Part shown: piece after piece, positions 828-29,390 of the stretch
Position numbering within the stretch: the stretch's first letter is position 1
Layout: the number at the start of each line of letters is the position of its first letter
Source of the DNA: an uncultured virus (IMG/VR IMGVR_UViG_3300029288_000091)
Lineage: Duplodnaviria > Heunggongvirae > Uroviricota > Caudoviricetes
Reading direction: 5' to 3' (one strand)
Virus record (IMG/VR): IMGVR_UViG_3300029288_000091
Length of the DNA: 59,248 nt
Program-made: the position numbers and the translations under genes
The notes under the pieces: generated by a model
The model's input: only the letters and a program-made list of their open reading frames with translations
What the model was told of the DNA's origin: nothing
Database searches by the model: none

Positions 828-2294
828 CTACATATTAGTTTGAAACTCAACAATATATTTAAGTCTATGTTGTTGATTAGGTCCTGACGAATTATAAATC
901 ATATTTTCAGAATTATAAAGCCCGCCACCAGGAACAGCGTATACACTATGACAACCACTTGGAGGTTGTCTAAAAAATTGTGAATACGTAACAACATGCG
1001 GTTTACCAACGATTACATCTGCTAGGAACATAAAAACACTATCATTCCCAGAACTTCCCGACCAATAAGCACCTTTACTACCACAATAATTCATGCTTTT
1101 AGAACTTGATTCAGCAAAATAAAGAGCATCTCCAAACATTGAACCAGTATATACGGCTCCAGATGGTCTAATTGTCAATCCTCTTGTAATAATACCAACC
1201 ATATTTTGTGGTCTGGTGCCATGCCATAATGGCCAAACATTAGATTGTGTAAATAATTTCCTCTCGTCATTAGATAAATCTGGGCGCTGTAAAGTAGTAA
1301 ATCTAGGTTTCTCTAATTTTCCACTTATTTCTCTAGACACACGCTCTATATTACTACTAAAATAACCACTTTCTTGCTTTCTGGCAAGCCTATATATGTT
1401 GAAAATTTTAACTTTTCCCAAAAAAGAGTGGTTTGATGCCCTAGTTTCATTAACTAAATTAACTATCCAAGAGTTAACTGGATCCTTAGGATCGAGCCAT
1501 TCCAAATAAGCATTTAATTTTTTATATTGTTCATCTACAATGCTGTCGTTTCCCATAACATTTTCAACATTTTTGGCATCAAGAAATGTATCCAACATAT
1601 CATGCTTAGCCATAATTTTATCCAACGAATTAAGCCTTAATGAAAAAGGATCAATTTTGTGTGGTAATACGTGTGGAATTAAACTATAAAACTGAGATGT
1701 TAAGTTATCATAAACATCTTCATTGGTTTTAGTTTTTGAATTTATTCTACTTTTACAATCATCTAGAACTATTCTACCTTTATCAATCTGTTCTTTAGTT
1801 AATTGTCCCAATGGACACTTAAGAGTCATAGTAATATATTTACCAGTGACACCAAACCAATTTGAAACCAATCTTTGTACTTCTGGATGTAATAAACTTG
1901 CCACTACTGTTTTTTCAGTGGTTCCAGTAATACCAGTCATAGGCTTTTTAATTTGTTGAGCACCATCGGAGCCAACAGAAGTAATAGCTAAATCAACTTC
2001 ACGATAAGGATCTTTTTTTCTATCTCTTTTTTTACGAATAAGACCATCATAATCTGATAAACAAGCACTTTCTGAAGAATAATACCTATATTCTTTACTA
2101 CCAGAAGCACCAACACGACCATATACTGTATAAATTCTAGCTTTACCATCTGGAGCCACTTGAATTTCAGCATGATAAAATTTATTAGAATTTGTAATTA
2201 CGTTTGTTTGATTACCTTCCCATCTTTTAATAACTTTATAATTAGAATGGAAAACTGGCTGATTATCCTCATGCTCTTTCCAAGCCTTTGTCAT
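828..2294 (-). CDS. poly(ADP-ribose) polymerase-like protein (WGR, regulatory and catalytic domains)
   Basis: N-terminal NKFY...VYGRVG (WGR-like); LTSQFYSLIPH (PARP regulatory); LWHGT, GSMFGDALYFA, SSKSMNY and LYNSENMIY give an H-Y-E triad. Confidence 0.92.
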   Translation of the reverse strand: MTKAWKEHEDNQPVFHSNYKVIKRWEGNQTNVITNSNKFYHAEIQVAPDGKARIYTVYGRVGASGSKEYRYYSSESACLSDYDGLIRKKRDRKKDPYREVDLAITSVGSDGAQQIKKPMTGITGTTEKTVVASLLHPEVQRLVSNWFGVTGKYITMTLKCPLGQLTKEQIDKGRIVLDDCKSRINSKTKTNEDVYDNLTSQFYSLIPHVLPHKIDPFSLRLNSLDKIMAKHDMLDTFLDAKNVENVMGNDSIVDEQYKKLNAYLEWLDPKDPVNSWIVNLVNETRASNHSFLGKVKIFNIYRLARKQESGYFSSNIERVSREISGKLEKPRFTTLQRPDLSNDERKLFTQSNVWPLWHGTRPQNMVGIITRGLTIRPSGAVYTGSMFGDALYFAESSSKSMNYCGSKGAYWSGSSGNDSVFMFLADVIVGKPHVVTYSQFFRQPPSGCHSVYAVPGGGLYNSENMIYNSSGPNQQHRLKYIVEFQTNM

Positions 2295-11243: not shown

Positions 11244-11540
11244 TTACTTCTCTCTTTTTGTTTGAGCTTTTGTTCTTGCTTTCTTTCCTCGAGACCTACG
11301 CATCTTTTTAAGAGCTTCTATATGTTCTCGTCGCTTCTTATCTGATGGCTTCTCGGCATATTTGCGATTTTTTAGTTCTGTTAAAATTCCATCCTTCGAT
11401 ATTTTATGTCTTAGGATTTTAATAGCCTCTTCCAAATCTCCATTCCTAACATCAACTTCAAGTGGCCTCAAGTGAGAATTAGGTACATTATTATTTTCTG
11501 TTTTCTTCCAAGCTGGTTTTCTTTGTTCCATATCAATCAC
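11244..11540 (-). CDS. rpsU: ribosomal protein bS21 homolog
   Basis: EVDVRNGDLEEAIKILRHKISKDGILTELKNRKYAEKPSDKKRRE matches the bS21 pattern. Confidence 0.85.
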   Translation of the reverse strand: MIDMEQRKPAWKKTENNNVPNSHLRPLEVDVRNGDLEEAIKILRHKISKDGILTELKNRKYAEKPSDKKRREHIEALKKMRRSRGKKARTKAQTKREK

Positions 11541-13856: not shown

Positions 13857-14315
13857 TTAAAAATACCAGCTTGGATTATTGTTTTCTTTTTTACCAAAAA
13901 TTATATTTAAATCTCTTCTTGAAAATAAAATTTCCTGTATCATTCTAAAATATGCATGTTTACGACGTAAATATTCTTCTTCTGTTTTTATTGGATGACA
14001 TTTATATTCTCCTTCTTCTTGTGTACAAAGAGGCCGATTCTTTTCTGGAAGAAGCTTATACAATTCAATATTTATTATTCCACAATCAATAAGATTCTTA
14101 CGCTCATTTTTTGAATTTTCTTTAGTAGGCATTACGACATTGCCATCTCTACGAATAATAAATTCCGAGTTATCTGCTGGTGTAATTATACCAAATTCTA
14201 TAAGTTGTTTCCTTCTATCAATACATTCTTGATCTGATGCAAACAAAATTTCTTCATTTGTGTTTACTATTTTTGCCATTTTATTATTTCTCCCAATATC
14301 TTTTTCTTTGTTCAT
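13857..14315 (-). CDS. hypothetical protein
   Basis: ORF with internal repeat RKxLIxxGII; likely start at 14279. Confidence 0.6.
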   Translation of the reverse strand: MNKEKDIGRNNKMAKIVNTNEEILFASDQECIDRRKQLIEFGIITPADNSEFIIRRDGNVVMPTKENSKNERKNLIDCGIINIELYKLLPEKNRPLCTQEEGEYKCHPIKTEEEYLRRKHAYFRMIQEILFSRRDLNIIFGKKENNNPSWYF

Positions 14316-15183
14316 TTATCACGGCAAGATTATCGGACGTATTTAGTTTAGTTGTAAAAGAATTATCAATACTAAATTCTACGCCGTGAGATTTAAGACC
14401 CTCTCCAATTAATAACTTTTGTATATAATTTAGAGCAATTGTTGCAGCAGTTACATTTGTTTGTATATTTTGAGGTGCTGAAATAGCGCGCTCTGCACAG
14501 CTTAGAGAAGAATTAAATTTGCTTTCGCCAGATATAATTTCTGGATAACACTCAGCAACACATGGCAAACTAAATTCTCCAGCCACACCAGTTTTTGGGT
14601 TTGCTTGAATGGCACAATCTAGAATCCTAGAAGGAGCATAACCACAAATAACCTGTCCCGCCCTCTCCTCATTTCCACAATCTATCCAGAATCTTGAACG
14701 ATAAGAGTAATGGTCATTCGTACTACTAAACCAGTCATAGATAAGCTTCCTGGTTGCATTATTATCTACGCAACCAACAATAAGATCCGAAGCTTTATTT
14801 CTCTTTCTATTTTCTCCCATAAATGCCAAGTCTTCTAAATTCTCAATATCTTTTGGAATTACACATATCTCTATACCGAAAGCATTAGAATATCTCTCAG
14901 CTAGAACTGTAGCTTTATTCTTTGATATATCAGAATTTACGAAGTGCTGACGAGCTAAGTTTTTAATTTCAACAATATCTCCATCAGCAAGGAATAAAGA
15001 AATTTGCTCTTCTTTTCTTGTCTTTTGATTAAGCACACTTATGAATCTCGATAGGTGTGCGGCCACATATGCCCCTGTTCCACCACAACCCATAATCAAA
15101 ACATTTTCAACTTTTGGATATTCAGCAAATTCTGTGAATAATGGAAGCTTTGTTTTAGTCATTAGAACCTCGTTTTTCTCCAA
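14284..15183 (-). CDS. ThiF/E1-like ubiquitin-activating enzyme (PRTRC ThiF-like)
   Basis: IMGCGGTG, DGDIVEIKNLARQ, NKA, IVGCVDNNATR, WIDCGNE, LSCAE candidate catalytic Cys. Confidence 0.92.
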   Translation of the reverse strand: MEKNEVLMTKTKLPLFTEFAEYPKVENVLIMGCGGTGAYVAAHLSRFISVLNQKTRKEEQISLFLADGDIVEIKNLARQHFVNSDISKNKATVLAERYSNAFGIEICVIPKDIENLEDLAFMGENRKRNKASDLIVGCVDNNATRKLIYDWFSSTNDHYSYRSRFWIDCGNEERAGQVICGYAPSRILDCAIQANPKTGVAGEFSLPCVAECYPEIISGESKFNSSLSCAERAISAPQNIQTNVTAATIALNYIQKLLIGEGLKSHGVEFSIDNSFTTKLNTSDNLAVINEQRKRYWEK

Positions 15184-16286
15184 TCATATGGGTCGAAATT
15201 CTCTCCACAAAACTTTTCAGTTTGTTTGTGCTCGGGTTTTTCTTCCTCAATTTCATCTTCTACAAGGTATCGTTTTCCATCTACAATATACCAAAGGTCG
15301 TCTCCCTCTTGTACATAATATCCATTAGAAAGATCACTACCTGAAGATTCTTCGGTCTCTTTAAAACATTCATATTGAGAATACAGATGGTCTTGATTTT
15401 CAAACTGAGATACTAAGTCCATCATTTTTGGATCCTCATTTCCCCATAATTCAATTTGCCTATCTCTCCTAAAATGTTGTCCACTAGTTCTTACTATCTG
15501 GACCTTCGCCTTCTTAATTCTCTCAGCCCAATCTTTTGGATATGTTTCCGCATGATACATTTCTTCATCTAGATCAAAAAGGTCTTCTACGCTTACATCT
15601 ACTTTATTTCCACCAATAGAAACCCTAATTTTAAGATCTGGAAAATAATTGCTAATATTACCAACTACACCAAAGAATCGATCAGCCTTCTCGTCACCAT
15701 CATCTGTACTAGAAAAGAAGGCCCCCATATTGCCGTGGCTATGTATCTCAAATACAAGTATTTTATTTTGATCTGAAAACATTTCATCATTGTCATACTT
15801 AACAGATGCACCACCTACGGTCTGTTTCGGACAATGAATAATATATTCATTATTTTCAGTATTCCAATAAAATTGTAAAAACACTTCGCTAGAGTGTTCT
15901 GCATAAATTCTACGGAAAAACGACACAGTAGTTCCTAAAAGCGATGCAGGAATTTTTGGAACATTAAGTTGCCAACCTTCATTTAAATTTTGTTCAAGCC
16001 CAGGAATATTTACCTTTGCAATTCTAGTTGTAAATGTTCCAAGTTTATTAATTCTCTGCTCATACAGACCATCTCCCTGCATAATATAAATAACTTTCTT
16101 AGAACAACTTTCAGGGACTTTTTCAATAAAGTGACCAACCATAAGTTTTTGTAGAGCGATTTTTTGCTTTGGATCCATAGGTGGCTCTGCTGGTTTACTA
16201 CGTGGCGAACCCATGAAATACTGGTGGCTATCGAAATTACCTTTCATTTGCGGTCTCTGAACGTAAAAGCTTTTTCTTTTGCCCAT
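15162..16286 (-). CDS. JAB/MPN metallopeptidase (PRTRC protein A-like)
   Basis: Upstream Glu in SSEVFLQFYW; EIHSHGNMGAFFSSTDDGDE = HxH-x7-S-x2-D; acidic C-terminal tail. Confidence 0.92.
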   Translation of the reverse strand: MGKRKSFYVQRPQMKGNFDSHQYFMGSPRSKPAEPPMDPKQKIALQKLMVGHFIEKVPESCSKKVIYIMQGDGLYEQRINKLGTFTTRIAKVNIPGLEQNLNEGWQLNVPKIPASLLGTTVSFFRRIYAEHSSEVFLQFYWNTENNEYIIHCPKQTVGGASVKYDNDEMFSDQNKILVFEIHSHGNMGAFFSSTDDGDEKADRFFGVVGNISNYFPDLKIRVSIGGNKVDVSVEDLFDLDEEMYHAETYPKDWAERIKKAKVQIVRTSGQHFRRDRQIELWGNEDPKMMDLVSQFENQDHLYSQYECFKETEESSGSDLSNGYYVQEGDDLWYIVDGKRYLVEDEIEEEKPEHKQTEKFCGENFDPYDWRKTRF

Positions 16287-16290
16287 TTGT

Positions 16291-16974
16291 TTACTCTTTT
16301 TCCTTTACAATTTGTTTAAAAGTTAATCCGTTGGAGCGCAGCATTTCTATTGGAAATTCCTGCAAAGTTTTAACATGACTAATTAAAGTCCAAAAATCAA
16401 AGATATCTACGCCTTTAGGCGCAACAAAATTAGAACCAGCTAAGTCTCCATTAAATTGTGAACCAAGGAATAAATTAATAACACTAACTAAATCCATTGG
16501 TTTTGAAATTTTTGGTAGGGAAACACCACCCCAGCATACACGGCCATCATTATAAACATTGCTAAATGGGAAACAAAACAAGCCATCGTTTTCAGATTGT
16601 AATGGATATTTCAAAGCATTAATTCTAAGATCATATATCTTGCCATCTTTAATACTAAAATAAAATAAACAAGTGGGATAAGGAACTTGTATAACTTCAT
16701 TTATTCTTTTAGTACCAGCAGAATTATATTTAGATAGAGTAAGATCTCTTATCTTAGCTGGTACTTCTACAGCCATACTAAAATTTACATTTGATCCTTT
16801 ATAAAATCTAGTACCCAGTGGCATTAAGCCTGTTGCCAATTTGTAATCAGAAACAAGAGTTGCAACCAAATCTTCTATGTCAACACTTTTCTTTCTAATA
16901 AGACCATTTGGATCCACAATAGTCAAGTTTGCATTTGGACTATCTTCTGGAATTTTAATTATCAACTCACACAT
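16291..16974 (-). CDS. prokaryotic E2-like conjugating enzyme (PRTRC protein B-like)
   Basis: GLMP, VPYPTCLFY, FPFSNVYNDGRVCWG with conserved Cys, FLGSQFNGDL. Confidence 0.87.
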   Translation of the reverse strand: MCELIIKIPEDSPNANLTIVDPNGLIRKKSVDIEDLVATLVSDYKLATGLMPLGTRFYKGSNVNFSMAVEVPAKIRDLTLSKYNSAGTKRINEVIQVPYPTCLFYFSIKDGKIYDLRINALKYPLQSENDGLFCFPFSNVYNDGRVCWGGVSLPKISKPMDLVSVINLFLGSQFNGDLAGSNFVAPKGVDIFDFWTLISHVKTLQEFPIEMLRSNGLTFKQIVKEKE

Positions 16975-17750
16975 TTGTTGTCCTTATAAATCTCCAAAGC
17001 CGAGTTAAATAGGCCCTGTGCGCCTTGTAACTTGGACTGTTTCTCTTTTTCAATTTGCCCTTCGAGTCTCTTTAGTTCCTCGTTTTTTTTATTATAAACA
17101 ATATCCTGATTAGTTTTTTCTTGTTCGAGCCGCAATCTTTCTGCACATTTTCTTTCTTGTTTTAGTCGTAAAGCCTCTACTTCTCGTTCTTTCTGTCTGC
17201 CCTCTTCGACGTTAAAAAATTCAGATAAGTATTGAATATTTTCATCCCATATGCGCTTATATTCTACACAAGACTTTGCACAATTATAAAATGTTTCTCT
17301 CGGCCTACGCGTCATTATTCCATATTCTCTTAGAACATTATACCTACTATTATTATCACTACTTATAACAGAAACTTTTATTTCATATGGTAAATTCGGA
17401 TAAACAAAGCCGTTTAAATTTTGTCGTATAATGTCAAATCTTCTCATAGCTTCCTTACCTTCTTTACCTGCATTATCGAAGTAGCTTCTTGGACGAGATC
17501 TAAGAACTAATAATAATTTGCTGATATCTTTTGGAATAGTTATATAGTAACAAATACTGTTGCTTTCAATATCATAATTTGGAAATAATTCTTTAATAAG
17601 TTTTCTAATTAATCTCTTACCAGCACTTATCTGATAACTGCTTTCATATTCATTGGGCATCTTGCACTTTCGTTTTACAATACCCATGTTTTTACAAAGT
17701 CGGAATAATCTCAAAAAATCTATTTGTCTATACTGTAAAGTTTTATCCAT
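16962..17750 (-). CDS. hypothetical protein with C-terminal coiled coil
   Basis: 262 aa ORF overlapping the E2 start. Confidence 0.7.
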   Translation of the reverse strand: MDKTLQYRQIDFLRLFRLCKNMGIVKRKCKMPNEYESSYQISAGKRLIRKLIKELFPNYDIESNSICYYITIPKDISKLLLVLRSRPRSYFDNAGKEGKEAMRRFDIIRQNLNGFVYPNLPYEIKVSVISSDNNSRYNVLREYGIMTRRPRETFYNCAKSCVEYKRIWDENIQYLSEFFNVEEGRQKEREVEALRLKQERKCAERLRLEQEKTNQDIVYNKKNEELKRLEGQIEKEKQSKLQGAQGLFNSALEIYKDNKCVS

Positions 17751-17760
17751 TTTAGTTTTC

Positions 17761-18015
17761 TCAAATAAATGTGGGTTTGTTTGATTCAGAAGCTTTTATT
17801 TTTTTCAATGTATCTATAAATTTCAATAGCTTTGACATCCGTGATTCAAGACGATCCATTTCATCCTCTAAAGCTTCGAGTTGTATATCTGTTGCGAAAT
17901 CATCATCAAAGTCCATAGGGTTTTTGATCGCCATAATTTTATTTAGTAATTCTTGTGCTTCTATATTAAAGTCGGTGCTCTCTGGAACATTCTCAAATAT
18001 TTGATCTATTTTCAT
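17761..18015 (-). CDS. small acidic coiled-coil hypothetical protein
   Basis: 84 aa ORF with GAGG RBS. Confidence 0.65.
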   Translation of the reverse strand: MKIDQIFENVPESTDFNIEAQELLNKIMAIKNPMDFDDDFATDIQLEALEDEMDRLESRMSKLLKFIDTLKKIKASESNKPTFI

Positions 18016-18026
18016 TTTTTATCCTC

Positions 18027-18063
18027 AAAAAAATGGGGAGCCACCCAAAATGGGTGGCTCCCC
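18027..18063 (-). terminator. intrinsic terminator after the Ubl genes
   Basis: 13 bp stem ggggagccaccca / tgggtggctcccc followed by a T tract on the minus strand. Confidence 0.88.
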
Positions 18064-18083: not shown

Positions 18084-18263
18084 TTAATCCTCAATTGAGG
18101 ATTGTACTATAAACTCAACCGTACCGTCCTTGCGCTCAACTGCTTTGGCATTAACTAAAGATGGATATATTTCCATCCAAATTTTGCGAACATCTTCGTT
18201 AGACATGTTCATAGGAGCTGTTATAGTTGCACCAGCATAACGATACGTTTTAGTTTTAGCCAT
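18084..18263 (-). CDS. ubiquitin-like protein paralog lacking C-terminal Gly (59 aa, not in ORF track)
   Basis: MAKTKTYRYAGATITAPMNMSNEDVRKIWMEIYPSLVNAKAVERKDGTVEFIVQSSIED aligns without gaps to the di-Ubl unit. Confidence 0.85.
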   Translation of the reverse strand: MAKTKTYRYAGATITAPMNMSNEDVRKIWMEIYPSLVNAKAVERKDGTVEFIVQSSIED

Positions 18264-18265
18264 GA

Positions 18266-18616
18266 TTAGACGCCCTTAGTCCCAGCCCTTACTTGGAAAT
18301 TAACACTGCCATCCTCAAGCTGAACAGCCTCGGCATTGGCAAGAGATGGGTGAACAGCCTCCCAGACTTGGCGAACTTGATCGATACTGAGATCCTCTGG
18401 CGCAGTAATAACTTCCTCACCAAAACGATAAGTACGTTCGGCGCCCTTGGTACCAGCCCTTACTTGGAAGTTCACACTTCCATCCTCAAGTTGAATAGCT
18501 TCAGCATTGGCAAGCGATGGATGGACAGCTTCCCAAACCTGACGAACCTGATCAATACTAAGATCCTCGGGAGCAGTAATAACTTCCTCACCAAAACGAT
18601 AAGTTCTCTCTGACAT
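18266..18616 (-). CDS. tandem di-ubiquitin-like precursor (PRTRC protein C-like), 2 x 57 aa plus Val
   Basis: Two near-identical units each ending RAGTKG; HPSLANA resembles the YPEL.NA motif and GTKG terminus of PRTRC protein C. Confidence 0.88.
   Translation of the reverse strand: MSERTYRFGEEVITAPEDLSIDQVRQVWEAVHPSLANAEAIQLEDGSVNFQVRAGTKGAERTYRFGEEVITAPEDLSIDQVRQVWEAVHPSLANAEAVQLEDGSVNFQVRAGTKGV
18272..18613 (-). repeat. 171 bp tandem direct repeat, two copies
   Basis: 18443-18613 and 18272-18442; about 20 synonymous versus 2 amino-acid differences. Confidence 0.95.
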
Positions 18617-18639
18617 GGTATTTTCTCCTTTTCCGTTAA

Positions 18640-19149
18640 TTACTTTCTATTAAGTTTCTCTAGAATTTCAACTGCGCGATCAAAACCAACCTCATCAACG
18701 GTAGCCTTAAGAGCAGCAATATGACGAGTACTTACAGCCTGTGGCTCCTGACGAGGCAACCTCTTAAGAACCTCTTCTACCGCCTTGTTTACAGCGTCTT
18801 GAATAGTTTTCTTAATATCTACTCCACCACAACACCCATCATCATCATAATCTTGGTCCTGGTCATAATCATAGTCTTCGCTATAATCCTCTTCCTCAAG
18901 CTTTTCTAAATCCTCCATAGCTTGTGCTACAGCAGTTCCGAGAGCATCTTCCATGCTCTCATGACTAATAACACCACGGACTTGGCCATCATCCATTTCT
19001 ACTCTAGCGGCATAAACTTCGGGATCATCACAGCATTCACCACAACCGCAACAACCACCTTCCAACGGTACTATAGCTGTAGTTACAACCAACTTCTCGC
19101 GGGTTGTTCCATTGAGGTCAGACATCAATACATTAAAATCACGTCGCAT
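18640..19149 (-). CDS. acidic Cys-cluster hypothetical protein
   Basis: GCCGCGECCD and GCCGG, D/E/Y-rich tract, strong AAGGAG RBS. Confidence 0.8.
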   Translation of the reverse strand: MRRDFNVLMSDLNGTTREKLVVTTAIVPLEGGCCGCGECCDDPEVYAARVEMDDGQVRGVISHESMEDALGTAVAQAMEDLEKLEEEDYSEDYDYDQDQDYDDDGCCGGVDIKKTIQDAVNKAVEEVLKRLPRQEPQAVSTRHIAALKATVDEVGFDRAVEILEKLNRK

Positions 19150-19171
19150 TTTCTTTCTCCTTCTTTGTTAG

Positions 19172-19510
19172 TTATTTACCACCACGATTTCTACCAGGAG
19201 ACTTCGATGTCCCCTCACGTCTACATACTGTTTCCCAATCTAACCACTGACTAGTAGTCTCATCAATAATTAATTTGGCCTGGTCTTTATTTATTCTTCT
19301 TACAGGAATTCCTATATATTTGCCAGTCTGGGCAATATTTGCCCCGGTATACTTTTTATTATATCTTTTAAGACTCTCTACTAAAAAATAAGTCTTATGA
19401 GCTTCTAGAATCTTACATCTCATGATCTGTTTTGTTTGGTTAAATTGAGAAGTTTTGCGGGTTACATAAATTGTATAAATATGTCTTCTAGTCTCAATCT
19501 TTTTTTCCAT
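19172..19510 (-). CDS. hypothetical basic protein
   Basis: 112 aa ORF with RBS. Confidence 0.6.
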   Translation of the reverse strand: MEKKIETRRHIYTIYVTRKTSQFNQTKQIMRCKILEAHKTYFLVESLKRYNKKYTGANIAQTGKYIGIPVRRINKDQAKLIIDETTSQWLDWETVCRREGTSKSPGRNRGGK

Positions 19511-19811
19511 CTCTTTCCTCCTCTTTTGGTTGGTTTTTAATCTGTTCTAATAGCTTATATAGTTCTGATTCACATTCTAATTTAATATTTTCTTCAACAG
19601 ATTTATTAAGTATTTCACCTATTTGTATTAATTTTTCTGGGGTTATTACATTTATTAATTCTATGGATTTTAAAACTTTTCTGTATGAATACATAAAACC
19701 TAAAAGAATCTCTAAAAATGTTACTTTTTCAAGTTTTTCATTAAAATTTAAATCGACAAAGAAACTGATAAATATTTCTGCCAATTTTTCTACATTTATA
19801 TGATTAATCAT
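19494..19811 (-). CDS. hypothetical protein
   Basis: 105 aa ORF with GGAGG RBS. Confidence 0.55.
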   Translation of the reverse strand: MINHINVEKLAEIFISFFVDLNFNEKLEKVTFLEILLGFMYSYRKVLKSIELINVITPEKLIQIGEILNKSVEENIKLECESELYKLLEQIKNQPKEEERDGKKD

Positions 19812-20501
19812 TTTCCTCCACTATTTTTGAAACTTTCCCAGATGCAAATCCATGAGCCGGGAAACCAATAATATAATTCCTATCTGCTCTATAACAAAGT
19901 GCCCCTTTTAGTCCCCCACAAGTCTTACATGTTGTATTACTATTTATTGCTGGACAAATCATTACCTTGCGTCCAGCTGGAGTTACTACTCTTTTGCCAC
20001 AATCTTTTGGTAACGTCACAACGACAGGGCCTATTTTTAAATTATATAGTTTATCTGCGTGTGTTAAATTATTTGCACTCAGATTTATTGTAAGCCCGTT
20101 TTTGTTACAATACTTAATTATTTTTTTATTATTTCCTATATGTGGCGGCTTATGAGTATAACCCCAAGCCATGAGACCTTCGCACGCCTTGATTAATCTT
20201 CTTACTTTTTTAATATTAATTCTCTCGTTGTATCCAGGCAAATCGCCAGCTTGGAATAATCTTACTCTGGTTTTCATCTCGGCAGTTTCCTTAATGCTGA
20301 TATTAATTCCGAAAAATCAATGCCGTGTTTACCCGAATCAACTTTCATCCAATGTATTCTTAAAGGACCACCCTTAGCATAACACCCATTGTTTTTAAAC
20401 GGACAAGAATTAGGACAAGTGGAAGAAGAAGAGGTAACTACTGGAATCTCTCCTGTCTTTTTATTTTTGGATTTCAAAGTTATATGGTAATATTCACCCA
20501 T
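19804..20501 (-). pseudogene. Cys-rich radical-SAM-like phage protein split into two ORFs
   Basis: SKNKKTG...TCPNSCP...GCYA in 20274-20501 continues as RLFQAGD, WGYTH, INLS, CPA, TCKTC, IIGFPAHG in 19804-20277. Confidence 0.6.
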
Positions 20502-21388: not shown

Positions 21389-24300
21389 TTATGTTGCCAT
21401 ATTAATTAATGTATCTCTATTCTTCTTAACACTTATATCATTACTATCTTCTTCAACAACTATATTTAGAAGTAATTTATCAATAGCTTCAATTAAATTA
21501 GATACTGGTGTTAATTTAATTTCATTTCTTACATCTTGTGGAATTTCATCAATATTATGTTGATTTTGCGTAGGATATAAAACCTCTTTGATTCCACCCC
21601 TATGAGCTGCCAAAACCTTTTCTACAAGTCCACCTATCGGAAGAACTCTTCCACGTAGAGTAATTTCACCTGTCATAGCTACATCATTTCTTACAGGCTT
21701 ATTAGTAAATAAAGAAAGCATGGCTGCCGATATAGCTATACCAGCACTTGGGCCATCCTTTGGTGTTGCACCAGCAGGGAAGTGGATATGTACATCCTTT
21801 TGAGAAAAAAGATTTTGATCAATTCCAAACTTGTCGACGTTTGACTTAATCCAAGTAAGCGCTGTAGAAGCAGATTCTTGTAATACTTTCCCTAAATTAC
21901 CAGTAAGTTTTATATCACCCTTACCAGAACACAGTGAGGCTTCTACAAATAGAAGTGAGCCACCATGTTGACTCCATGCAAGACCTGTACTTAATCCAAC
22001 TTCAGGCTTTTCTCCAGCTTTTTCTATAAAAACTTTTGGTGGACCAAGAAATTTTGATATAGAGTCAGCTCTTACAATTGATGGCGCTTCTTTTCCCGCA
22101 GCTACAGTAACTGCAATTTTTCTTAAAATAGCTCCACATTCTCTTTCAAGATTACGTACACCAGCTTCTCCAGTATACTCCTCAATAACTTTTGTAATAG
22201 CTTGCGGTGAAATAGAAATATCATACTCCTTAAGTCCATTAGCTTCTTTTTGTTTAGGTATCAAATAATTTTGTACAATTTTAAGTTTATCATGAGGAGA
22301 ATAGCCCGGTATTTCAATTATTTCCATTCTATCCTGTAATGCTGGTGGAATCGGACCAATATCGTTTGCTGTTGTAATAAAAAATACATTCGATAAATCA
22401 AACGGTACATTTAAATAATTATCAACAAATGCACAGTTTTGTTCTGGATCAAGAACTTCAAGTAATGCTGATCCAGGATCGCCGCGAAAATCTTTACTTA
22501 GTTTGTCAATTTCATCTAACATATATAGCGGATTATTTACTCCTGTTTTTTTAAGATATTGAATAATTTTTCCAGTCATTGCTCCAATATATGTTTTTCT
22601 ATGTCCTCTAATCTCAGCCTCATCATGGACACCACCAAGAGACAATCTGATAAACTCGCGGCCCATTGCTTTAGCTATGCTTTTACCAAGAGATGTATTA
22701 TGAGTAACAATGAAATCATCAGTAATGTATAGATGATCAGGATGATCGATTAATATACACTTAGCTTCTTTCTTGCCAACATATTCGATTTTTTTAATAT
22801 ATCTTGGTAAAAATCTAGCTTTATTTTTTGTTGTGTTGTAAAGATTTATTTTACTTTCCATTTTAAATGGAATAATACCATTTGGTAAAGTAATATTTAA
22901 CCTATGTCTGTCCTTTTCTTGTAGTTTTTCACCCTTATAAGTATAAAATGATTTTCCAGATGAATAATAAGCTTGTCCACCAAGAGATTCAACCAAAAAT
23001 TTTACATCTTTACACAATTGAATAGACGCAGAACTATATTCTATTGAATGCTTTTCATCATTAACGGAGCCATTTGTGTCTAATATTCCCCGCAATAATT
23101 CCAATCTGTTTTTGGAGGAAGTTAATTTATATTGAATTGGAACGAATTTCTTATCAGCTAAACAACCCCTTAGCTCAACCTCATCAATAAAGTTTGCGAC
23201 TGAAGATTTATTATTTTGTTTGTTAATATTGTTTACACATCTATGATTTATTTTAGAGATACCATAATCGATTTCCTTATCGCCCCGAAGAGATAGTTTA
23301 CACCTAACCAAATTTAACTTTTCTTCAATGATATTAATTAGGCCAGCATCACTATTAGTAAAAGATGTTTTATTTTCGCCCAAAGTTTTATCACCCAATA
23401 AAGCTCCAACTAAATAAGGATCTAGTCCTAATACTTCTGGCTCAATAAAATTTATATTTGGCCCAACCATTGGTATACTATAATTTTTTCTTAGACCCCT
23501 TTCGACATACAAGTTTTTATTAATTTGTTCCAATGACTTAACACAACCATCTTTATCTTCTTTTCTATCATCTCTGTTTTTAACTTTCCATAAGTGTTCT
23601 TTGCAACACTCAGTTTTACTTCCATCACTAAAGACAACTGAATATATTTCTTTTTCTCCTTGCGGATATATACAAATTACATTAGCATTTTTGCCATCTG
23701 GTGTAGAAACTATATCTCCAACATTAATGTCACCCATAGTTTTCCAACCACCAGGTGTTAATACCTTTGCATCAAGAGGTTGAGCTTTGCCCACTCCAGG
23801 AGGACCAACAAAACATAAAATAGCTCCCTTACGATTTGGTACCAATTTGCGTACAGCAAGATATTCCAAAATTCTTTCTTTTGGCTTTTCTAATCCATAA
23901 TGGTCATTATCAAGAGATTTTCTAGCTTTATCAATATCCAGTTTGTCTTCTGACTTTTTGTCCCATGGTAGAATGGAAAGCGCTTCAATATAATTTGTGG
24001 TTATCGCATATTCAGACATTGCGGAATTCATATTTTTAAGCCTACGAAGCTCTTGATTAGCGATTTTTAATACATCTTCTGGCATCTTAGAATTATTAAC
24101 CAATTTTCGTAGACGAGAAAATTCGCCTTCTTCGTTTTCTATATTTGATATAATTGGAGGACTTTCTTTAGTGCGTTTTACTAACATACCCAAAACAAAT
24201 ATTAGAATTTCTAAACGCTTTTTAACATCTGGCTCGCCAAGAAAATTTAGTTTAGTTTTACCATCCAATTCTATTTGTCCTATAATATTATCAATTAAAA

Positions 24301-24799
24301 TAGAAAGATCTTTGGAAGTTTTTGGCAACGATTTGTTTTTAACAGTAATATATGGAAAATTTATTTCTATAGTTCTAAAAATTTTCGCAATATTTTCATC
24401 AACAATTTCATTAATTTCTACTGGTATTTCTTTATATGGTAAAATTTCTCCATTAAGATATGACAAATTTCCCTTTGAGACTTTACCAACGGTTTTAAGG
24501 CGCGCTCTATTAACACCAATAACAATAATACGCTTCTTGATCCCTTCGTCATCAAGGGGAATTATACTTTTTATTTCTGCTTCCGTACATATACCATAAA
24601 AATCTGCTGCTGATGGCTCATCTACTCTTTCATCTTTTTGTATAGCAACAACAATGGTAGAGTTAGAAGCTTTGGCCGCACTAATAGCATCGATAGAAAT
24701 GGGTCGTCCAACATCAATAATACAAGGAAAACCTGGAAATGCGACTAATCGTTGATCTTTAAGTGGAAGTATTGGAAGTTTGCGACCTTTTTCTGCCAT
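21389..24799 (-). CDS. lon: ATP-dependent Lon protease containing an intein
   Basis: LON N domain, DHYGLEKPKERILEYLAV, Walker A GPPGVGK|T, MLDEIDK, PKDGPSAG (Ser) and IGGLVEK (Lys) dyad. Confidence 0.97.
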   Translation of the reverse strand: MAEKGRKLPILPLKDQRLVAFPGFPCIIDVGRPISIDAISAAKASNSTIVVAIQKDERVDEPSAADFYGICTEAEIKSIIPLDDEGIKKRIIVIGVNRARLKTVGKVSKGNLSYLNGEILPYKEIPVEINEIVDENIAKIFRTIEINFPYITVKNKSLPKTSKDLSILIDNIIGQIELDGKTKLNFLGEPDVKKRLEILIFVLGMLVKRTKESPPIISNIENEEGEFSRLRKLVNNSKMPEDVLKIANQELRRLKNMNSAMSEYAITTNYIEALSILPWDKKSEDKLDIDKARKSLDNDHYGLEKPKERILEYLAVRKLVPNRKGAILCFVGPPGVGKAQPLDAKVLTPGGWKTMGDINVGDIVSTPDGKNANVICIYPQGEKEIYSVVFSDGSKTECCKEHLWKVKNRDDRKEDKDGCVKSLEQINKNLYVERGLRKNYSIPMVGPNINFIEPEVLGLDPYLVGALLGDKTLGENKTSFTNSDAGLINIIEEKLNLVRCKLSLRGDKEIDYGISKINHRCVNNINKQNNKSSVANFIDEVELRGCLADKKFVPIQYKLTSSKNRLELLRGILDTNGSVNDEKHSIEYSSASIQLCKDVKFLVESLGGQAYYSSGKSFYTYKGEKLQEKDRHRLNITLPNGIIPFKMESKINLYNTTKNKARFLPRYIKKIEYVGKKEAKCILIDHPDHLYITDDFIVTHNTSLGKSIAKAMGREFIRLSLGGVHDEAEIRGHRKTYIGAMTGKIIQYLKKTGVNNPLYMLDEIDKLSKDFRGDPGSALLEVLDPEQNCAFVDNYLNVPFDLSNVFFITTANDIGPIPPALQDRMEIIEIPGYSPHDKLKIVQNYLIPKQKEANGLKEYDISISPQAITKVIEEYTGEAGVRNLERECGAILRKIAVTVAAGKEAPSIVRADSISKFLGPPKVFIEKAGEKPEVGLSTGLAWSQHGGSLLFVEASLCSGKGDIKLTGNLGKVLQESASTALTWIKSNVDKFGIDQNLFSQKDVHIHFPAGATPKDGPSAGIAISAAMLSLFTNKPVRNDVAMTGEITLRGRVLPIGGLVEKVLAAHRGGIKEVLYPTQNQHNIDEIPQDVRNEIKLTPVSNLIEAIDKLLLNIVVEEDSNDISVKKNRDTLINMAT
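22697..23785 (-). mobile_element. 363 aa intein with LAGLIDADG domain in Lon Walker A
   Basis: Begins AQPLDAKVLTP, ends FIVTHN followed by Thr; removal restores GPPGVGKTS. Confidence 0.95.
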
Positions 24800-28121: not shown

Positions 28122-29390
28122 TTACCTCCAATGTTTATCTTTGGCTGTTACTCCGTTAGATATAATACTAATTGGAACGCCGAATACCTCTTCGAAATAT
28201 TCTGGAAAGTTTTCTTTTTCGATTTCTTTATATTTCTTAATTGGTGATACAATCTTAAGTCTATCGTGAATATCATTACTAGAAACAAAACAAGTAAGAT
28301 CTTTTAGTTGGTTACCACCAACATAATAGTTTTCACAAACTTTAAATCTGCTATCCATCCTATCAAAATTTGTTAAGGCCACAGACTGAACAGCTGATTT
28401 TTCAACAGCATATTTTGTAAGTTGACAATCAAACCAACCATATCTAAACTCTTTTTGCCATTGATTATCAATATTGTGTTCATCTTTTGTCCAAGGAACG
28501 TCTTTAATTTCTGTTAGTAATGGCCCATATCCATGTCTATGAGAATATGGCCGCAATATACCAACAACCGCTTTCTCTTCAACATATTGTGAAGTAATAT
28601 TGCACAACATAGAAAGCGCATATTGTGTATTTACTTTACAATTAGTGATATATGGTCTAAAACCTATATCTTTATCTAGCAATATTCCCTAAGACCCCTC
28701 AAAGATTAAATTATTATTTTTAACATCTTTGCTTATAAAATCTATTGTATCTACAACATTATATCTATTATAAAACGATTTATATATAGACATAACTTTT
28801 TCAATATTAAGATTAAGCATTTCTTGAAATAGCTTAGCAAGTATGGCATCATTACCGATAAGATTTGCTACCTTATCTAATTTGCTAAACCTAATGCTTT
28901 TAAGTTTCTGTTCTAAAAGTTTTGTGTTTGGAATGTCTTTAACTTGGACCGATGTTCCATAATCCCTACTAATTGCCGCAGCGCCAACACCCATTCCACA
29001 AGTACTTTTGCCAAATACTAGCGAGGTTATTCTTCCCATTCCTTTATCATATGGACTAATTATATGACAGTTCTCATCGATATAAATCATATCGTTTATT
29101 TCTCTATTAACTTTGGAACGAAAAATATCTTCTTCATACATTAAGGCTGATGGCTCTATTAACATATGTTCGCCAAGTACGGTTTTTGTACCATTTACAA
29201 ACATACCTGAGCCAAGTTGTGCAAAAGTATGATGAAGACCTTCATTAGTAATAACATTATGAGCTGCTTGTGGCCCACCACTATATCTTACTATAGTGGC
29301 AGGTGCTAATTCTCTTGTTAAAAAATCTACTATTGTTCCCTTACCCTCATCACCAAAATGCAAACCAACTGTTACATAGATTTTGCCCAT
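28122..29390 (-). pseudogene. adenylosuccinate synthetase-like gene with one in-frame TAG
   Basis: GLHFGDEGKG, RYSGGPQAAHNV, TCGMGVG, FEGS*GILLD (TAG 28689-28691), RHGYGP, FRYGWFD. Confidence 0.88.

What the first reader, a model, noticed from the sequence alone, without database searches (positions are those of the whole stretch)
18084..18263. Hidden third Ubl: Lys-bearing paralog with no C-terminal glycine
Seen: a 59 aa ORF missed by the 60 aa cutoff, starting 2 nt after the di-Ubl stop. It keeps TYR, ITAP, VR..W, PSL.NA and DG.V.F but ends QSSIED instead of RAGTKG. It has five Lys, while each di-Ubl unit has only the Lys in TKG. Inference: non-conjugatable, so possibly an acceptor, chain cap, E1/JAB inhibitor or decoy.
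Basis: partly seen in the sequence, partly recalled or inferred. Interest (0 to 1): 0.75.

Follow-up and report, generated by a model that had tools for sequence, protein, structure and literature searches.

The report
Tail-less ubiquitin-like gene in jumbo phage
A giant phage that carries its own ubiquitin-like tagging kit also has a small extra copy of the tag that has lost the end needed for attachment, so it probably acts by binding rather than by being attached, but it occurs in this one phage lineage only and its role is untested.

Summary
Window 18084-18263 (minus strand) is an intact 59-aa ORF that starts 2 nt after the di-Ubl stop. It lies in a jumbo-phage PRTRC-like cassette: di-Ubl, E2, JAB, E1.

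It is a true member of the PRTRC_C/Prok_Ub family (HMMER E 2.7e-17 to a di-Ubl; predicted beta-grasp, pLDDT 83). It keeps 7 of 7 conserved body positions. The family tail AGTKG is replaced by SSIED. 95 of 99 family units examined end in KG, so canonical E1 charging and JAB processing are unlikely. That step is inferred.

It is not a simple third repeat:
- It is 39-40% identical to the neighbouring units and 47% to a foreign mono-Ubl.
- Trees pair it with another tail-less Ubl (a Ubl-zinc-ribbon protein), outside the di-Ubl clade. AU tests are borderline.
- None of 7 related loci with DNA has such a gene, including a syntenic one.
- Ten contigs carry 97%-identical di-Ubls, yet no Ubl3 relative is on record.

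It is therefore a lineage-specific accessory, probably acquired. The best guess (0.4) is a non-covalent modulator or competitor. A functionless captured fragment (0.3) remains open. No expression or binding data exist.

The parts
18084..18263 (-). Ubl3: 59-aa tail-less ubiquitin-like (beta-grasp) protein; tail SSIED in place of AGTKG
   Evidence: ORF. Family matches. AF2 model with pLDDT 83.2, order strand-strand-helix-helix-strand-strand, residues 56-59 below pLDDT 50. Fold matches to ubiquitin-like and MoaD chains, Z 4.2-6.2.
18264..18280 (-). Junction: last di-Ubl codons (T-K-G-V, stop TAA) plus a 2-nt spacer. The K-G codons give an AAGGG Shine-Dalgarno-like word 9 nt before the Ubl3 ATG.
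   Evidence: Sequence read. Position 18264 is G>A in two other samples and changes no codon.
18266..18616 (-). di-Ubl precursor: two 57-58 aa units, each ending RAGTKG, plus one trailing Val
   Evidence: Prok_Ub 30.7 bits, above the cut-off of 25, with 2 stretches. The units differ at 26 of 171 nt, 23 of them at third codon positions; dN 0.023, dS 1.13.
18025..18063 (-). Intrinsic terminator closing the di-Ubl/Ubl3 unit: 13-bp stem with 10 G-C pairs, then ATTTTTTTGA
   Evidence: The syntenic locus L011 has its own GC-rich hairpin directly after its di-Ubl.
16291..16974 (-). E2-like protein (Prok-E2_D / PRTRC_B-like)
   Evidence: PF14460 8.5e-11. TIGR03737 3e-10, below its cut-off.
15162..16286 (-). 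JAB/JAMM peptidase (PRTRC_A-like)
   Evidence: PF14464 1.8e-5. TIGR03735 2.9e-15, below its cut-off. An HSHGNMGAFFSSTDD motif is read.
14284..15183 (-). E1-like adenylating enzyme (ThiF family, PRTRC_ThiF-like)
   Evidence: PF00899 4.1e-16. TIGR03736 4.2e-35, 121.2 bits against a cut-off of 144.75. Glycine-rich loop and C229 are invariant in alignment A4.
16962..18015 (-). Two conserved cassette genes of unknown function (84 aa at 17761-18015; 262 aa at 16962-17750) between the Ubl genes and E2
   Evidence: Homologues at the same place in L011: 95 aa at 35% identity and 230 aa at 31%. Same position in the Bacillus phages.
18640..19149 (-). 169-aa acidic, Cys-rich protein just upstream of the di-Ubl, in the slot that PRTRC protein E holds in phage Dina
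   Evidence: Gene order in Dina is E-C-F-B-A-ThiF. No family match was found.

Best explanation
What it is (confidence about 0.9). Ubl3 is an intact, separately initiated gene for a 59-aa beta-grasp protein of the PRTRC_C/Prok_Ub ubiquitin-like family. It lies 2 nt behind the phage's di-Ubl precursor gene and in front of the same strong terminator. The setting is a jumbo-phage cassette that also encodes an E2-like protein, a JAB peptidase and an E1-like enzyme.

What changed. Ubl3 keeps every family-wide signature of the globular body. The xGxKG tail, which E1 must adenylate and behind which JAB must cut, is replaced by SSIED. I therefore infer that it cannot enter the cascade as a modifier.

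Where it came from. It is an accessory gene of this phage lineage alone. It more likely came in from another Ubl lineage than arose by copying the neighbouring units.

How it most likely works (confidence about 0.4). It is made together with the Ubl. Through its preserved body it binds non-covalently to a partner that recognises the Ubl body: the E2, the JAB, or a reader or target. It thereby competes with or tunes conjugation. This would make it a viral counterpart of eukaryotic non-conjugatable Ubl domains.

Shown: the gene, the fold prediction, family membership by sequence, the tail loss, the operon position, and the restriction to this lineage.

Inferred: no E1 charging, binding to a partner, and any effect on the cascade.
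For: Family and fold.
- HMMER hits to mono-, di- and poly-Ubls, from E 2.7e-17.
- PRTRC_C 2.9e-5 and Prok_Ub 1.5e-3.
- AF2 model with pLDDT 83.2 and beta-grasp topology. The best VIA matches are nearly all ubiquitin-like chains.

Body kept, tail lost.
- In A2, Ubl3 keeps Y7, V25, R26, P34, N38, A39 and F51 (7 of 7). It has none of G56, K58 and G59.
- Against a neighbouring unit the body is identical at 23 of 51 residues and the tail at 0 of 6. Twelve of the 18 tail nucleotides differ.
- The tail is family-defining. 95 of 99 units end in KG (L011 and P0033 are the same protein and are counted twice). 22 of 24 near-length family proteins carry the KG motif at or within 2 residues of the C-terminus (with for rows fetched separately). 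Phage Dina's PRTRC protein C also has GRKG, at the end of its Ubl domain.

Expression set-up.
- ATG start and an AAGGG word 9 nt upstream.
- No terminator lies between the di-Ubl and Ubl3. A strong terminator follows 20 nt after the Ubl3 stop.

A second tail-less relative.
- P0029 is a Ubl body plus an acidic linker and a CxxC...CxxC ribbon. It pairs with Ubl3 in both trees, with support 88/75 and 89/88.
- BLASTP aligns the two proteins to the last residue, FIVQSSIED against FVISLTADD.

Stability. The Ubl3 coding sequence is identical in contigs from three samples of three studies, while flanking sites vary.
Against: - No counterpart was found in any of the 7 related loci whose DNA I could read: L011, L001, L002, L013, L005, L007, L014. 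The cascade clearly works without it.
- Ten contigs carry di-Ubls 97% identical to this one. Yet no Ubl3-like protein other than this exact sequence is on record. The gene is therefore probably young here. A preserved body may then reflect too little time to decay rather than selection.
- Too few variants exist for a selection test: 0 changes in 180 nt against 5 in the flanking 732 nt.
- The conserved tail Lys is replaced by Glu and the end is acidic. By analogy with ubiquitin Arg72 (recalled, not tested here) this would weaken E1 docking. That counts against the E1-decoy form of the idea.
- There is no RNA, protein or binding evidence.
- P0029 sits on a long branch (1.65-1.83), so its pairing with Ubl3 could be an artefact.
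Confidence: 0.4

Rival explanations
1. Functionless passenger. Ubl3 is a recently captured or 3'-truncated Ubl copy. Its last five codons were replaced at the recombination junction, and a stop followed quickly in AT-rich DNA. It is carried along and perhaps expressed, but does nothing useful.
For: - It is a singleton: only this exact protein is on record, on 3 contigs.
- It is absent from the syntenic locus L011, where the terminator follows the di-Ubl directly. It is also absent from 6 further related loci.
- Close di-Ubl relatives end at TKG-stop, while this one has an extra Val at the junction. That fits an insertion scar.
- The tail shows no trace of AGTKG in any frame (my reading).
Against: - The ORF is intact in a 32% GC genome where stop codons are frequent. 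My rough estimate for 59 stop-free codons by chance is about 1%.
- It has a proper ATG and a Shine-Dalgarno-like word.
- All 7 conserved body positions are kept.
- P0029 has a similar acidic tail, which suggests that tail-less forms are a maintained type.
Confidence: 0.3
2. Acceptor or primer. Ubl3 is a dedicated lysine-bearing substrate onto which the E2 loads Ubl. It would seed or cap chains that the nearly Lys-free Ubl units cannot build themselves.
For: Ubl3 has five Lys against one per di-Ubl unit. Net charge is 0 against -5 over the 57-aa slices. It is co-transcribed with the Ubl.
Against: The lysine contrast is local. Conjugatable relatives have 2-6 Lys per unit: P0012 has 5 and the KLEB27-3 unit has 6. 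Phages with the same cascade lack any such acceptor. Nothing points to which Lys would be used.
Confidence: 0.1
3. Still a modifier. Ubl3 is activated through its unusual C-terminus, or after trimming, by this E1 or by another ligase.
For: Terminal Gly is not absolute in the family. All five units of P0011 end in AQNKS.
Against: Ubl3 lacks the whole motif, including the conserved Lys, and ends in Glu-Asp. No internal xGxKG exists to trim back to. The HMM scan found no other Ubl-like ORF in the window, and the Pfam scans listed no other ThiF-type or ligase-like candidate near the cassette (the latter at E<=1e-5).
Confidence: 0.03
4. Frameshift fusion. A -1 ribosomal frameshift at the di-Ubl end joins Ubl3 to the di-Ubl as a third unit.
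For: The Ubl3 frame is open for 4 codons upstream of its ATG. It lies at -1 relative to the di-Ubl frame.
Against: There is no slippery heptamer at the junction (my reading). Ubl3 has its own ATG and a Shine-Dalgarno-like word. A fused product would still lack a terminal tail.
Confidence: 0.02

Closest known systems
PRTRC system protein C (TIGR03738) / Prok_Ub (PF14454): the small Ubl of operon type 6d of Iyer, Burroughs and Aravind 2006 (PMC1779556, section 14 read). Example: Ralstonia phage Dina gp06.
   Same: Sequence family. Predicted beta-grasp fold. Neighbourhood with E2_D/PRTRC_B, JAB/PRTRC_A and ThiF-type E1, in the same gene order as in Dina.
   Different: The family is described as having a highly conserved C-terminal Gly (PMC1779556). 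Dina's protein has GRKG. Ubl3 has SSIED instead. Ubl3 also scores below both curated cut-offs.
Poly-Ubl precursors of Bacillus jumbo phages vB_BceM_WH1 (gp211, annotated 'virion structural protein'), Edson and vB_BauM_KLEB27-3, and of uncultured phage contigs (L007, P0003, P0014 and others)
   Same: Same Ubl subfamily and the same cassette. The body motifs are shared.
   Different: Those are 2-7 head-to-tail units, each ending in xGxKG, with a short blocking extension. None has a separate tail-less copy.
P0029: a 97-aa metagenomic protein with a Ubl body, an acidic linker and a CxxC...CxxC ribbon
   Same: It is tail-less. It is 38% identical to Ubl3, aligned to the last residue, and is its sister in both trees.
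   Different: It carries an extra zinc-ribbon-like domain. It has lost N38 and G47, which Ubl3 keeps. Its genomic context could not be fetched.
Eukaryotic non-conjugatable ubiquitin-fold proteins: Hub1/UBL5, the SUMO-like domains of Esc2/Rad60/NIP45, and MUBs (recalled from the literature, from no call)
   Same: The working analogy is a ubiquitin fold without the Gly-Gly end that acts by non-covalent binding, in several cases to the E2.
   Different: There is no detectable sequence relationship. Binding by Ubl3 is not shown.
Multi-beta-grasp Ubls of bacterial Bil and Bub operons (Gong et al. 2024, PMC11601603; abstract and section 5 read)
   Same: Beta-grasp domains that are not themselves conjugated sit next to one that is, in E1-E2-JAB operons.
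   Different: There the extra domains are fused in one chain and belong to other Ubl families. Here the tail-less domain is a separate gene in a phage PRTRC-like cassette.

Membership tests
PRTRC_C / Prok_Ub (PF14454) ubiquitin-like family | Match to the family profile at the curated threshold | tested here: not met
   TIGR03738 scored 24.1 bits against a cut-off of 45.95. PF14454 scored 18.8 against 25. Homology is nevertheless clear from phmmer (E 2.7e-17 to P0002). The neighbouring di-Ubl passes Pfam at 30.7 bits.
PRTRC_C / Prok_Ub (PF14454) ubiquitin-like family | Beta-grasp (ubiquitin-like) fold | tested here: met
   AF2 pLDDT 83.2, strands 4-9, 12-17, 39-43, 49-53 and helices 22-29, 34-38. 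VIA Z 4.2-6.2 to Raf RBD, Fubi, ubiquitin variants, SUMO, ISG15, MoaD and a bacterial Ubl (8tyz_B). Z values are modest for a 59-aa model, and Foldseek found nothing at E<=1e-3.
PRTRC_C / Prok_Ub (PF14454) ubiquitin-like family | Conserved C-terminal Gly (xGxKG) at the end of the Ubl domain | tested here: not met
   SSIED stands in place of AGTKG. 95 of 99 units end in KG.
PRTRC_C / Prok_Ub (PF14454) ubiquitin-like family | Gene neighbourhood with ThiF-type E1, Prok-E2_D and JAB | tested here: met
   The order matches phage Dina's PRTRC genes.
Conjugatable Ubl modifiers (functional class) | Free or exposable C-terminal Gly that E1 can adenylate | tested here: not met
   There is no Gly in the last 12 residues; the last Gly is G47.
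Conjugatable Ubl modifiers (functional class) | E1-dependent charging | not testable with these tools
   This needs biochemistry.
Third repeat of the neighbouring poly-Ubl (recent tandem duplicate) | Closest relatives are the adjacent units | tested here: inconclusive
   Identity is 39-40% to its own units and 47% to P0012. Both trees place it outside the di-Ubl clade. AU tests give p 0.0475, 0.071 and 0.0625.
Non-conjugatable Ubl-domain proteins acting by non-covalent binding (functional analogy) | Binds E2, a DUB or a reader through the Ubl body | not testable with these tools
   No binding result could be obtained here. Pull-down or ITC is needed.

The most novel reading that the evidence does not exclude
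Ubl3 and the Ubl-zinc-ribbon protein P0029 define an unrecognised class of tail-less viral Ubls. They would be prokaryotic-virus counterparts of SUMO-like domains or MUBs. They dock non-covalently on the E2 or the JAB of PRTRC-like cascades. This phage would have acquired Ubl3 horizontally from a different Ubl lineage and placed it in the high-expression Ubl operon. There it would serve as a brake or cap on its own conjugation, or as a decoy against the Ubl cascade of a competing co-infecting phage.
Probability: 0.15. Interest if true: 0.75.

Novelty: new variant of a known kind. Interest (0 to 1): 0.45.

Why it matters
What PRTRC-type Ubl-E2-JAB-E1 cassettes do is not stated in any paper I read or in the annotations I saw.

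Those found here in jumbo phages make polyubiquitin-like precursors of 2-7 units. I found no description of that in my literature searches. The 2021 jumbo-phage survey PMC7824862 has no occurrence of Ubl, JAB, E1-like or ThiF.

A natural tail-less paralogue sits in the same operon. If it binds one enzyme of the cascade, it would be a ready-made probe for which surface of the Ubl that enzyme reads. It would also be the first regulator of such a system. If it does nothing, it shows how these cassettes pick up and lose Ubl copies.

Tried and rejected
Complex prediction. E1 (alignment A4) with Ubl3 (alignment A2) gave no verdict, score 0.00. This is not evidence either way.

Expression. No RNA holder was listed among the public runs. 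Only DNA contigs could be laid.

Own genome and earlier findings. Neither was available.

Searches for closer relatives or their context.
- blastn of the cassette against phages: no match.
- tblastn of Ubl3 against phages: one weak hit, to WH1.
- IMG/VR scans with the E1, the E1 alignment, P0012, P0029, P0004, the di-Ubl alignment and P0027 returned only this phage's own contig or distant loci.
- An IMG/VR scan with alignment A2 could not be run, because the alignment has no conserved stretch long enough.
- The metagenome scan gave one locus, L011.
- Two genome-contig scans gave nothing.
- As a result, the contigs carrying P0035 and P0050-53, P0029, P0012 and P0045 could not be read as DNA.
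- A last pattern scan of IMG/VR for tandem GTKG motifs was not run. That leaves untested whether other 57-aa-period poly-Ubl loci in IMG/VR carry a tail-less copy.

Family and structure libraries.
- PHROGs: no family for Ubl3.
- PDB by sequence profile: no hit.
- Foldseek: no hit at E<=1e-3.
- ESM Atlas: only Prok_Ub-type clusters, nothing new.

Selection. dN/dS of Ubl3 against the units is uninformative because dS is saturated.

Composition. I considered the GC island at 18150-19350 as a sign of recent transfer of the di-Ubl. I rejected it because the excess is mostly at first codon positions, that is amino-acid composition (GC1 0.68, GC3 0.36).

Literature. Searches for the Bacillus phage names found no paper. 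The basis of WH1 gp211's label 'virion structural protein' is therefore unknown.

Full report
THE OBSERVATION

Window 18084-18263 (minus strand) is an ATG-initiated ORF of 59 codons. The preceding ORF, 18266-18616, encodes 116 aa. These form two ubiquitin-like (Ubl) units of 57-58 aa, each ending RAGTKG, followed by one extra Val. Two nucleotides separate its TAA from the Ubl3 ATG.

Ubl3 shares TYR, ITAP, VR..W, PSL.NA and DG.V.F with the units. It ends QSSIED where they have RAGTKG. It has five Lys; each unit has one.

The likeness is far beyond chance:
- phmmer against 1.84 billion representatives gave 29 proteins at E<=1e-3 and 8 at E<=1e-10. The best non-self hit was 2.7e-17.
- Ubl3 also hits PRTRC_C (2.9e-5) and Prok_Ub (1.5e-3), though below both curated cut-offs.

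THE SETTING

The window is part of a jumbo phage.
- The exact Ubl3 protein lies on 3 contigs, the longest 243,788 bp.
- An IMG/VR contig of that length is 99.7% identical to the window over 16.5 kb.
- The rest of the window encodes a PARP-like protein, Hsp20, ribosomal protein S21, ligases, NAPRTase, Lon, Thg1, a CCA-adding enzyme and more.

On the minus strand the gene order is:
1. a 169-aa acidic protein;
2. the di-Ubl;
3. Ubl3;
4. a terminator with a 13-bp stem, 10 G-C pairs and a T-run;
5. an 84-aa protein;
6. a 262-aa protein;
7. an E2-like protein (Prok-E2_D / PRTRC_B-like);
8. a JAB peptidase (PRTRC_A-like);
9. an E1 (ThiF / PRTRC_ThiF-like).

This is the order of the annotated PRTRC genes E-C-F-B-A-ThiF of Ralstonia phage Dina. 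It also corresponds to operon type 6d of Iyer, Burroughs and Aravind 2006. [quoted passage not shown] All matches to the NCBIfam PRTRC models are below their cut-offs, so the cassette is a diverged relative.

THE FAMILY AND ITS TAIL

Relatives are mono-, di-, tri-, penta- and hepta-Ubls.
- Three Bacillus jumbo phages have the same cassette, with 4 or 5 units ending KAGVKG or QAGTKG plus a short blocking extension.
- A 172-kb viral contig (L007) has 5 units ending NRTGTKG.

Cutting all hits into units with a local HMM gave 99 units, of which 95 end in KG. L011 and P0033 are the same protein and are counted twice in that total. The four exceptions are Ubl3, P0029 and two units of P0004.

P0011 was not cut by the HMM. 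Its five units end in AQNKS, so a terminal Gly is not absolute.

In the profile search, 22 of 24 near-length proteins carry KG at or within 2 residues of the end. The exceptions are Ubl3 and P0029 (sequences).

In alignment A2 the invariant or nearly invariant positions are Y7, V25, R26, P34, N38, A39, F51, G56, K58 and G59. Ubl3 keeps the first seven and none of the last three.

Against a neighbouring unit, the body is identical at 23 of 51 residues and the tail at 0 of 6. Twelve of the 18 tail nucleotides differ. No frame of the 3' end retains a trace of AGTKG (my reading).

The loss is therefore confined to the part that E1 must adenylate and behind which JAB must cut. 'Non-conjugatable' is a sound inference, not a measurement.

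FOLD

AlphaFold2 on a 16-row alignment gave pLDDT 83.2. The order of elements is strand, strand, helix, short helix, strand, strand. Residues 56-59 are below pLDDT 50.

Foldseek found nothing at E<=1e-3. The Foldseek-independent aligner listed almost only ubiquitin-fold chains at Z 4.2-6.2: Raf RBD, Fubi, ubiquitin variants, SUMO, ISG15, MoaD and a bacterial Ubl in an E1-E2-Ubl complex. These Z values are modest, as expected for 59 residues. Taken with the sequence family, they support a beta-grasp fold.

IS IT A THIRD REPEAT?

Probably not in the simple sense.
- Ubl3 is 39-40% identical to its neighbours and 47% to the mono-Ubl P0012. Several mono-Ubls with normal tails score 44-47%.
- Two maximum-likelihood trees (57 columns, so weakly resolved) pair it with P0029, with support 88/75 and 89/88. 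Both put it outside the clade that holds the window's own units and their relatives (96/88).
- Holding Ubl3 together with its own units costs 11.3-11.7 log-likelihood units. The AU p values are only 0.0475 and 0.0625, so an in-situ duplication is disfavoured but not excluded.

IS IT CONSERVED ELSEWHERE?

No.
- The closest locus whose DNA I could read is L011. Its di-Ubl is 68% identical, its flanking genes are 64%, 35% and 31% identical, and its GC is 51%. The gene order is the same, but the di-Ubl ends TKG-stop and is followed at once by its own hairpin. There is no Ubl3.
- The HMM found no tail-less Ubl ORF in the three Bacillus phage loci, L005, L007 or phage Dina. That makes 0 of 7 related loci.
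- Ten further contigs (up to 91,754 bp) carry di-Ubls 97% identical to this one, all ending exactly at TKG. The word-based search, the exhaustive HMMER search and the profile search found no Ubl3-like protein other than this exact sequence.

I could not read those ten contigs as DNA, so absence of Ubl3 there is inferred from gene calls. If it holds, Ubl3 entered this lineage recently. The extra Val and the TAA-TC-ATG junction would then be the scar of that insertion.

In contigs from two other studies (groundwater 2022, landfill 2018) the Ubl3 and di-Ubl coding sequences are unchanged. Five flanking sites differ. That is too few for a selection test.

HOW IT MOST LIKELY WORKS

Shown:
- an intact gene with its own start;
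- a Shine-Dalgarno-like AAGGG word, formed by the Lys-Gly codons of the di-Ubl tail, 9 nt upstream;
- no terminator before it and a strong one after it.

It should therefore be transcribed with the Ubl precursor.

Inferred:
- It folds like a Ubl.
- It cannot be charged.
- It keeps the polar conserved surface residues (R26, N38, D46-G47). It could then still be recognised by whatever reads the Ubl body.

My best guess (0.4) is a non-covalent competitor or modulator of the cascade. The partner is more likely the E2, the JAB or a reader than the E1. The reason is that the conserved tail Lys has become Glu and the end is acidic. By analogy with ubiquitin Arg72 (recalled, not tested here) this should weaken E1 docking.

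P0029 supports the idea that tail-less forms are a maintained type. It has a similar acidic tail followed by a zinc-ribbon-like CxxC...CxxC module.

The main rival (0.3) is a functionless, recently captured or 3'-truncated copy. The gene's youth would by itself explain why the body looks untouched.

The acceptor idea (0.1) loses its main argument. Lys-rich bodies are common among conjugatable relatives, at 2-6 Lys per unit.

Non-canonical conjugation (0.03) and a frameshift fusion (0.02) are unlikely.

COMPARISON WITH WHAT IS KNOWN, AND NOVELTY

By sequence, fold and neighbourhood Ubl3 belongs with PRTRC_C/Prok_Ub. It fails the family's defining C-terminal Gly and both curated thresholds. I therefore file it as a tail-less variant, not a regular member.

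Functionally the nearest analogies are eukaryotic non-conjugatable ubiquitin-fold proteins (Hub1, SUMO-like domains, MUBs; recalled, from no call). Another is the extra beta-grasp domains of Bil and Bub Ubls (PMC11601603; abstract and section 5 read). Those are fused in one chain and belong to other families.

I found no paper describing poly-Ubl precursors or tail-less Ubls in phage PRTRC-like cassettes. The 2021 jumbo-phage survey PMC7824862 was searched for ubiquitin, Ubl, E1-like, JAB and ThiF and has only two unrelated mentions of ubiquitin. Subscription journals are not covered. Papers on the three Bacillus phages were not found.

VERDICT

The gene is real and correctly described, and the inference that it cannot be conjugated is reasonable. 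It is a single-lineage accessory gene with no expression, binding or conservation evidence. It is of moderate interest and is best pursued by reading the relatives' DNA and by a simple reconstitution.

Noticed in passing
window 18272-18613 (minus): The two di-Ubl units differ at only 2 of 57 residues but at 26 of 171 nucleotides, 23 of them at third codon positions (dN 0.023, dS 1.13). Protein identity is kept under strong purifying selection while the DNA copies have drifted apart. There is no sign of recent gene conversion.
   Followed up: partly
window 18266-18271 (minus): This di-Ubl ends TKG-Val-stop. The 97%-identical relatives (P0035, P0050-53) and L011 end TKG-stop. Other poly-Ubls carry blocking extensions of 1-15 residues, as eukaryotic polyubiquitin precursors do.
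   Followed up: partly
window 18048-18050: The terminator loop reads AAA in the window and TTT in contigs from two other studies. The stem is unchanged, so this looks like an inversion of the hairpin loop.
   Followed up: no
window 19804-20501 (minus): DUF7227 is split over two overlapping ORFs. The 75-aa ORF matches profile positions 3-73 and the 157-aa ORF matches 78-221 of 223. This is a frameshifted or naturally split gene.
   Followed up: no
window 28122-29390 (minus): Adenylosuccinate synthetase is split into two adjacent ORFs, matching profile positions 1-216 and 221-412 of 416.
   Followed up: no
window 21389-24799 (minus): The Lon protease is 1136 aa, with an insertion of about 350 aa inside the Walker A region (GPPGVGK ... 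THN-TSLGKS). It looks like an intein that begins with Ala. This was read from the sequence only; no intein family was listed at E<=1e-5.
   Followed up: no
window 828-2294 and 11244-11540 (minus): The phage encodes a PARP-like protein (WGR, PARP regulatory and catalytic domains) and a ribosomal protein S21. It also encodes NAPRTase, a NUDIX protein, Thg1 and a CCA-adding enzyme.
   Followed up: no
protein P0004 (393 aa, metagenomic): A long N-terminal region is followed by three Ubl units. The first two have no cleavable xGxKG between them and the last ends YTNKGKS. This may be an anchored, non-released tri-Ubl. Its context could not be fetched.
   Followed up: partly
protein P0011 (289 aa, metagenomic): This is a penta-Ubl whose five units all end in AQNKS rather than xGxKG. 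Terminal Gly is therefore not universal in this family.
   Followed up: no
window 17761-18015; L011 1466-1753; L001 1770-2153; L002 1580-2023: The small protein that follows the Ubl gene in each cassette ends in a shared C-terminal -FI (TFI, VFI, DFI, DFI). This may be a conserved docking or recognition end.
   Followed up: no
L005 6642-7103: In a 190-kb viral contig, an 88-aa ORF ending KFG sits directly before a 65-aa Ubl ending KRGELG, upstream of E2, JAB and E1. The 88-aa ORF is a weak HMM hit (E 0.029) around an LYPSL motif. This may be another two-Ubl arrangement.
   Followed up: no
L001 793-1692 (Bacillus phage vB_BceM_WH1 gp211): The penta-Ubl precursor is annotated 'virion structural protein'. 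If that rests on proteomics, the Ubl or its conjugates are in the virion. I could not find the paper.
   Followed up: partly
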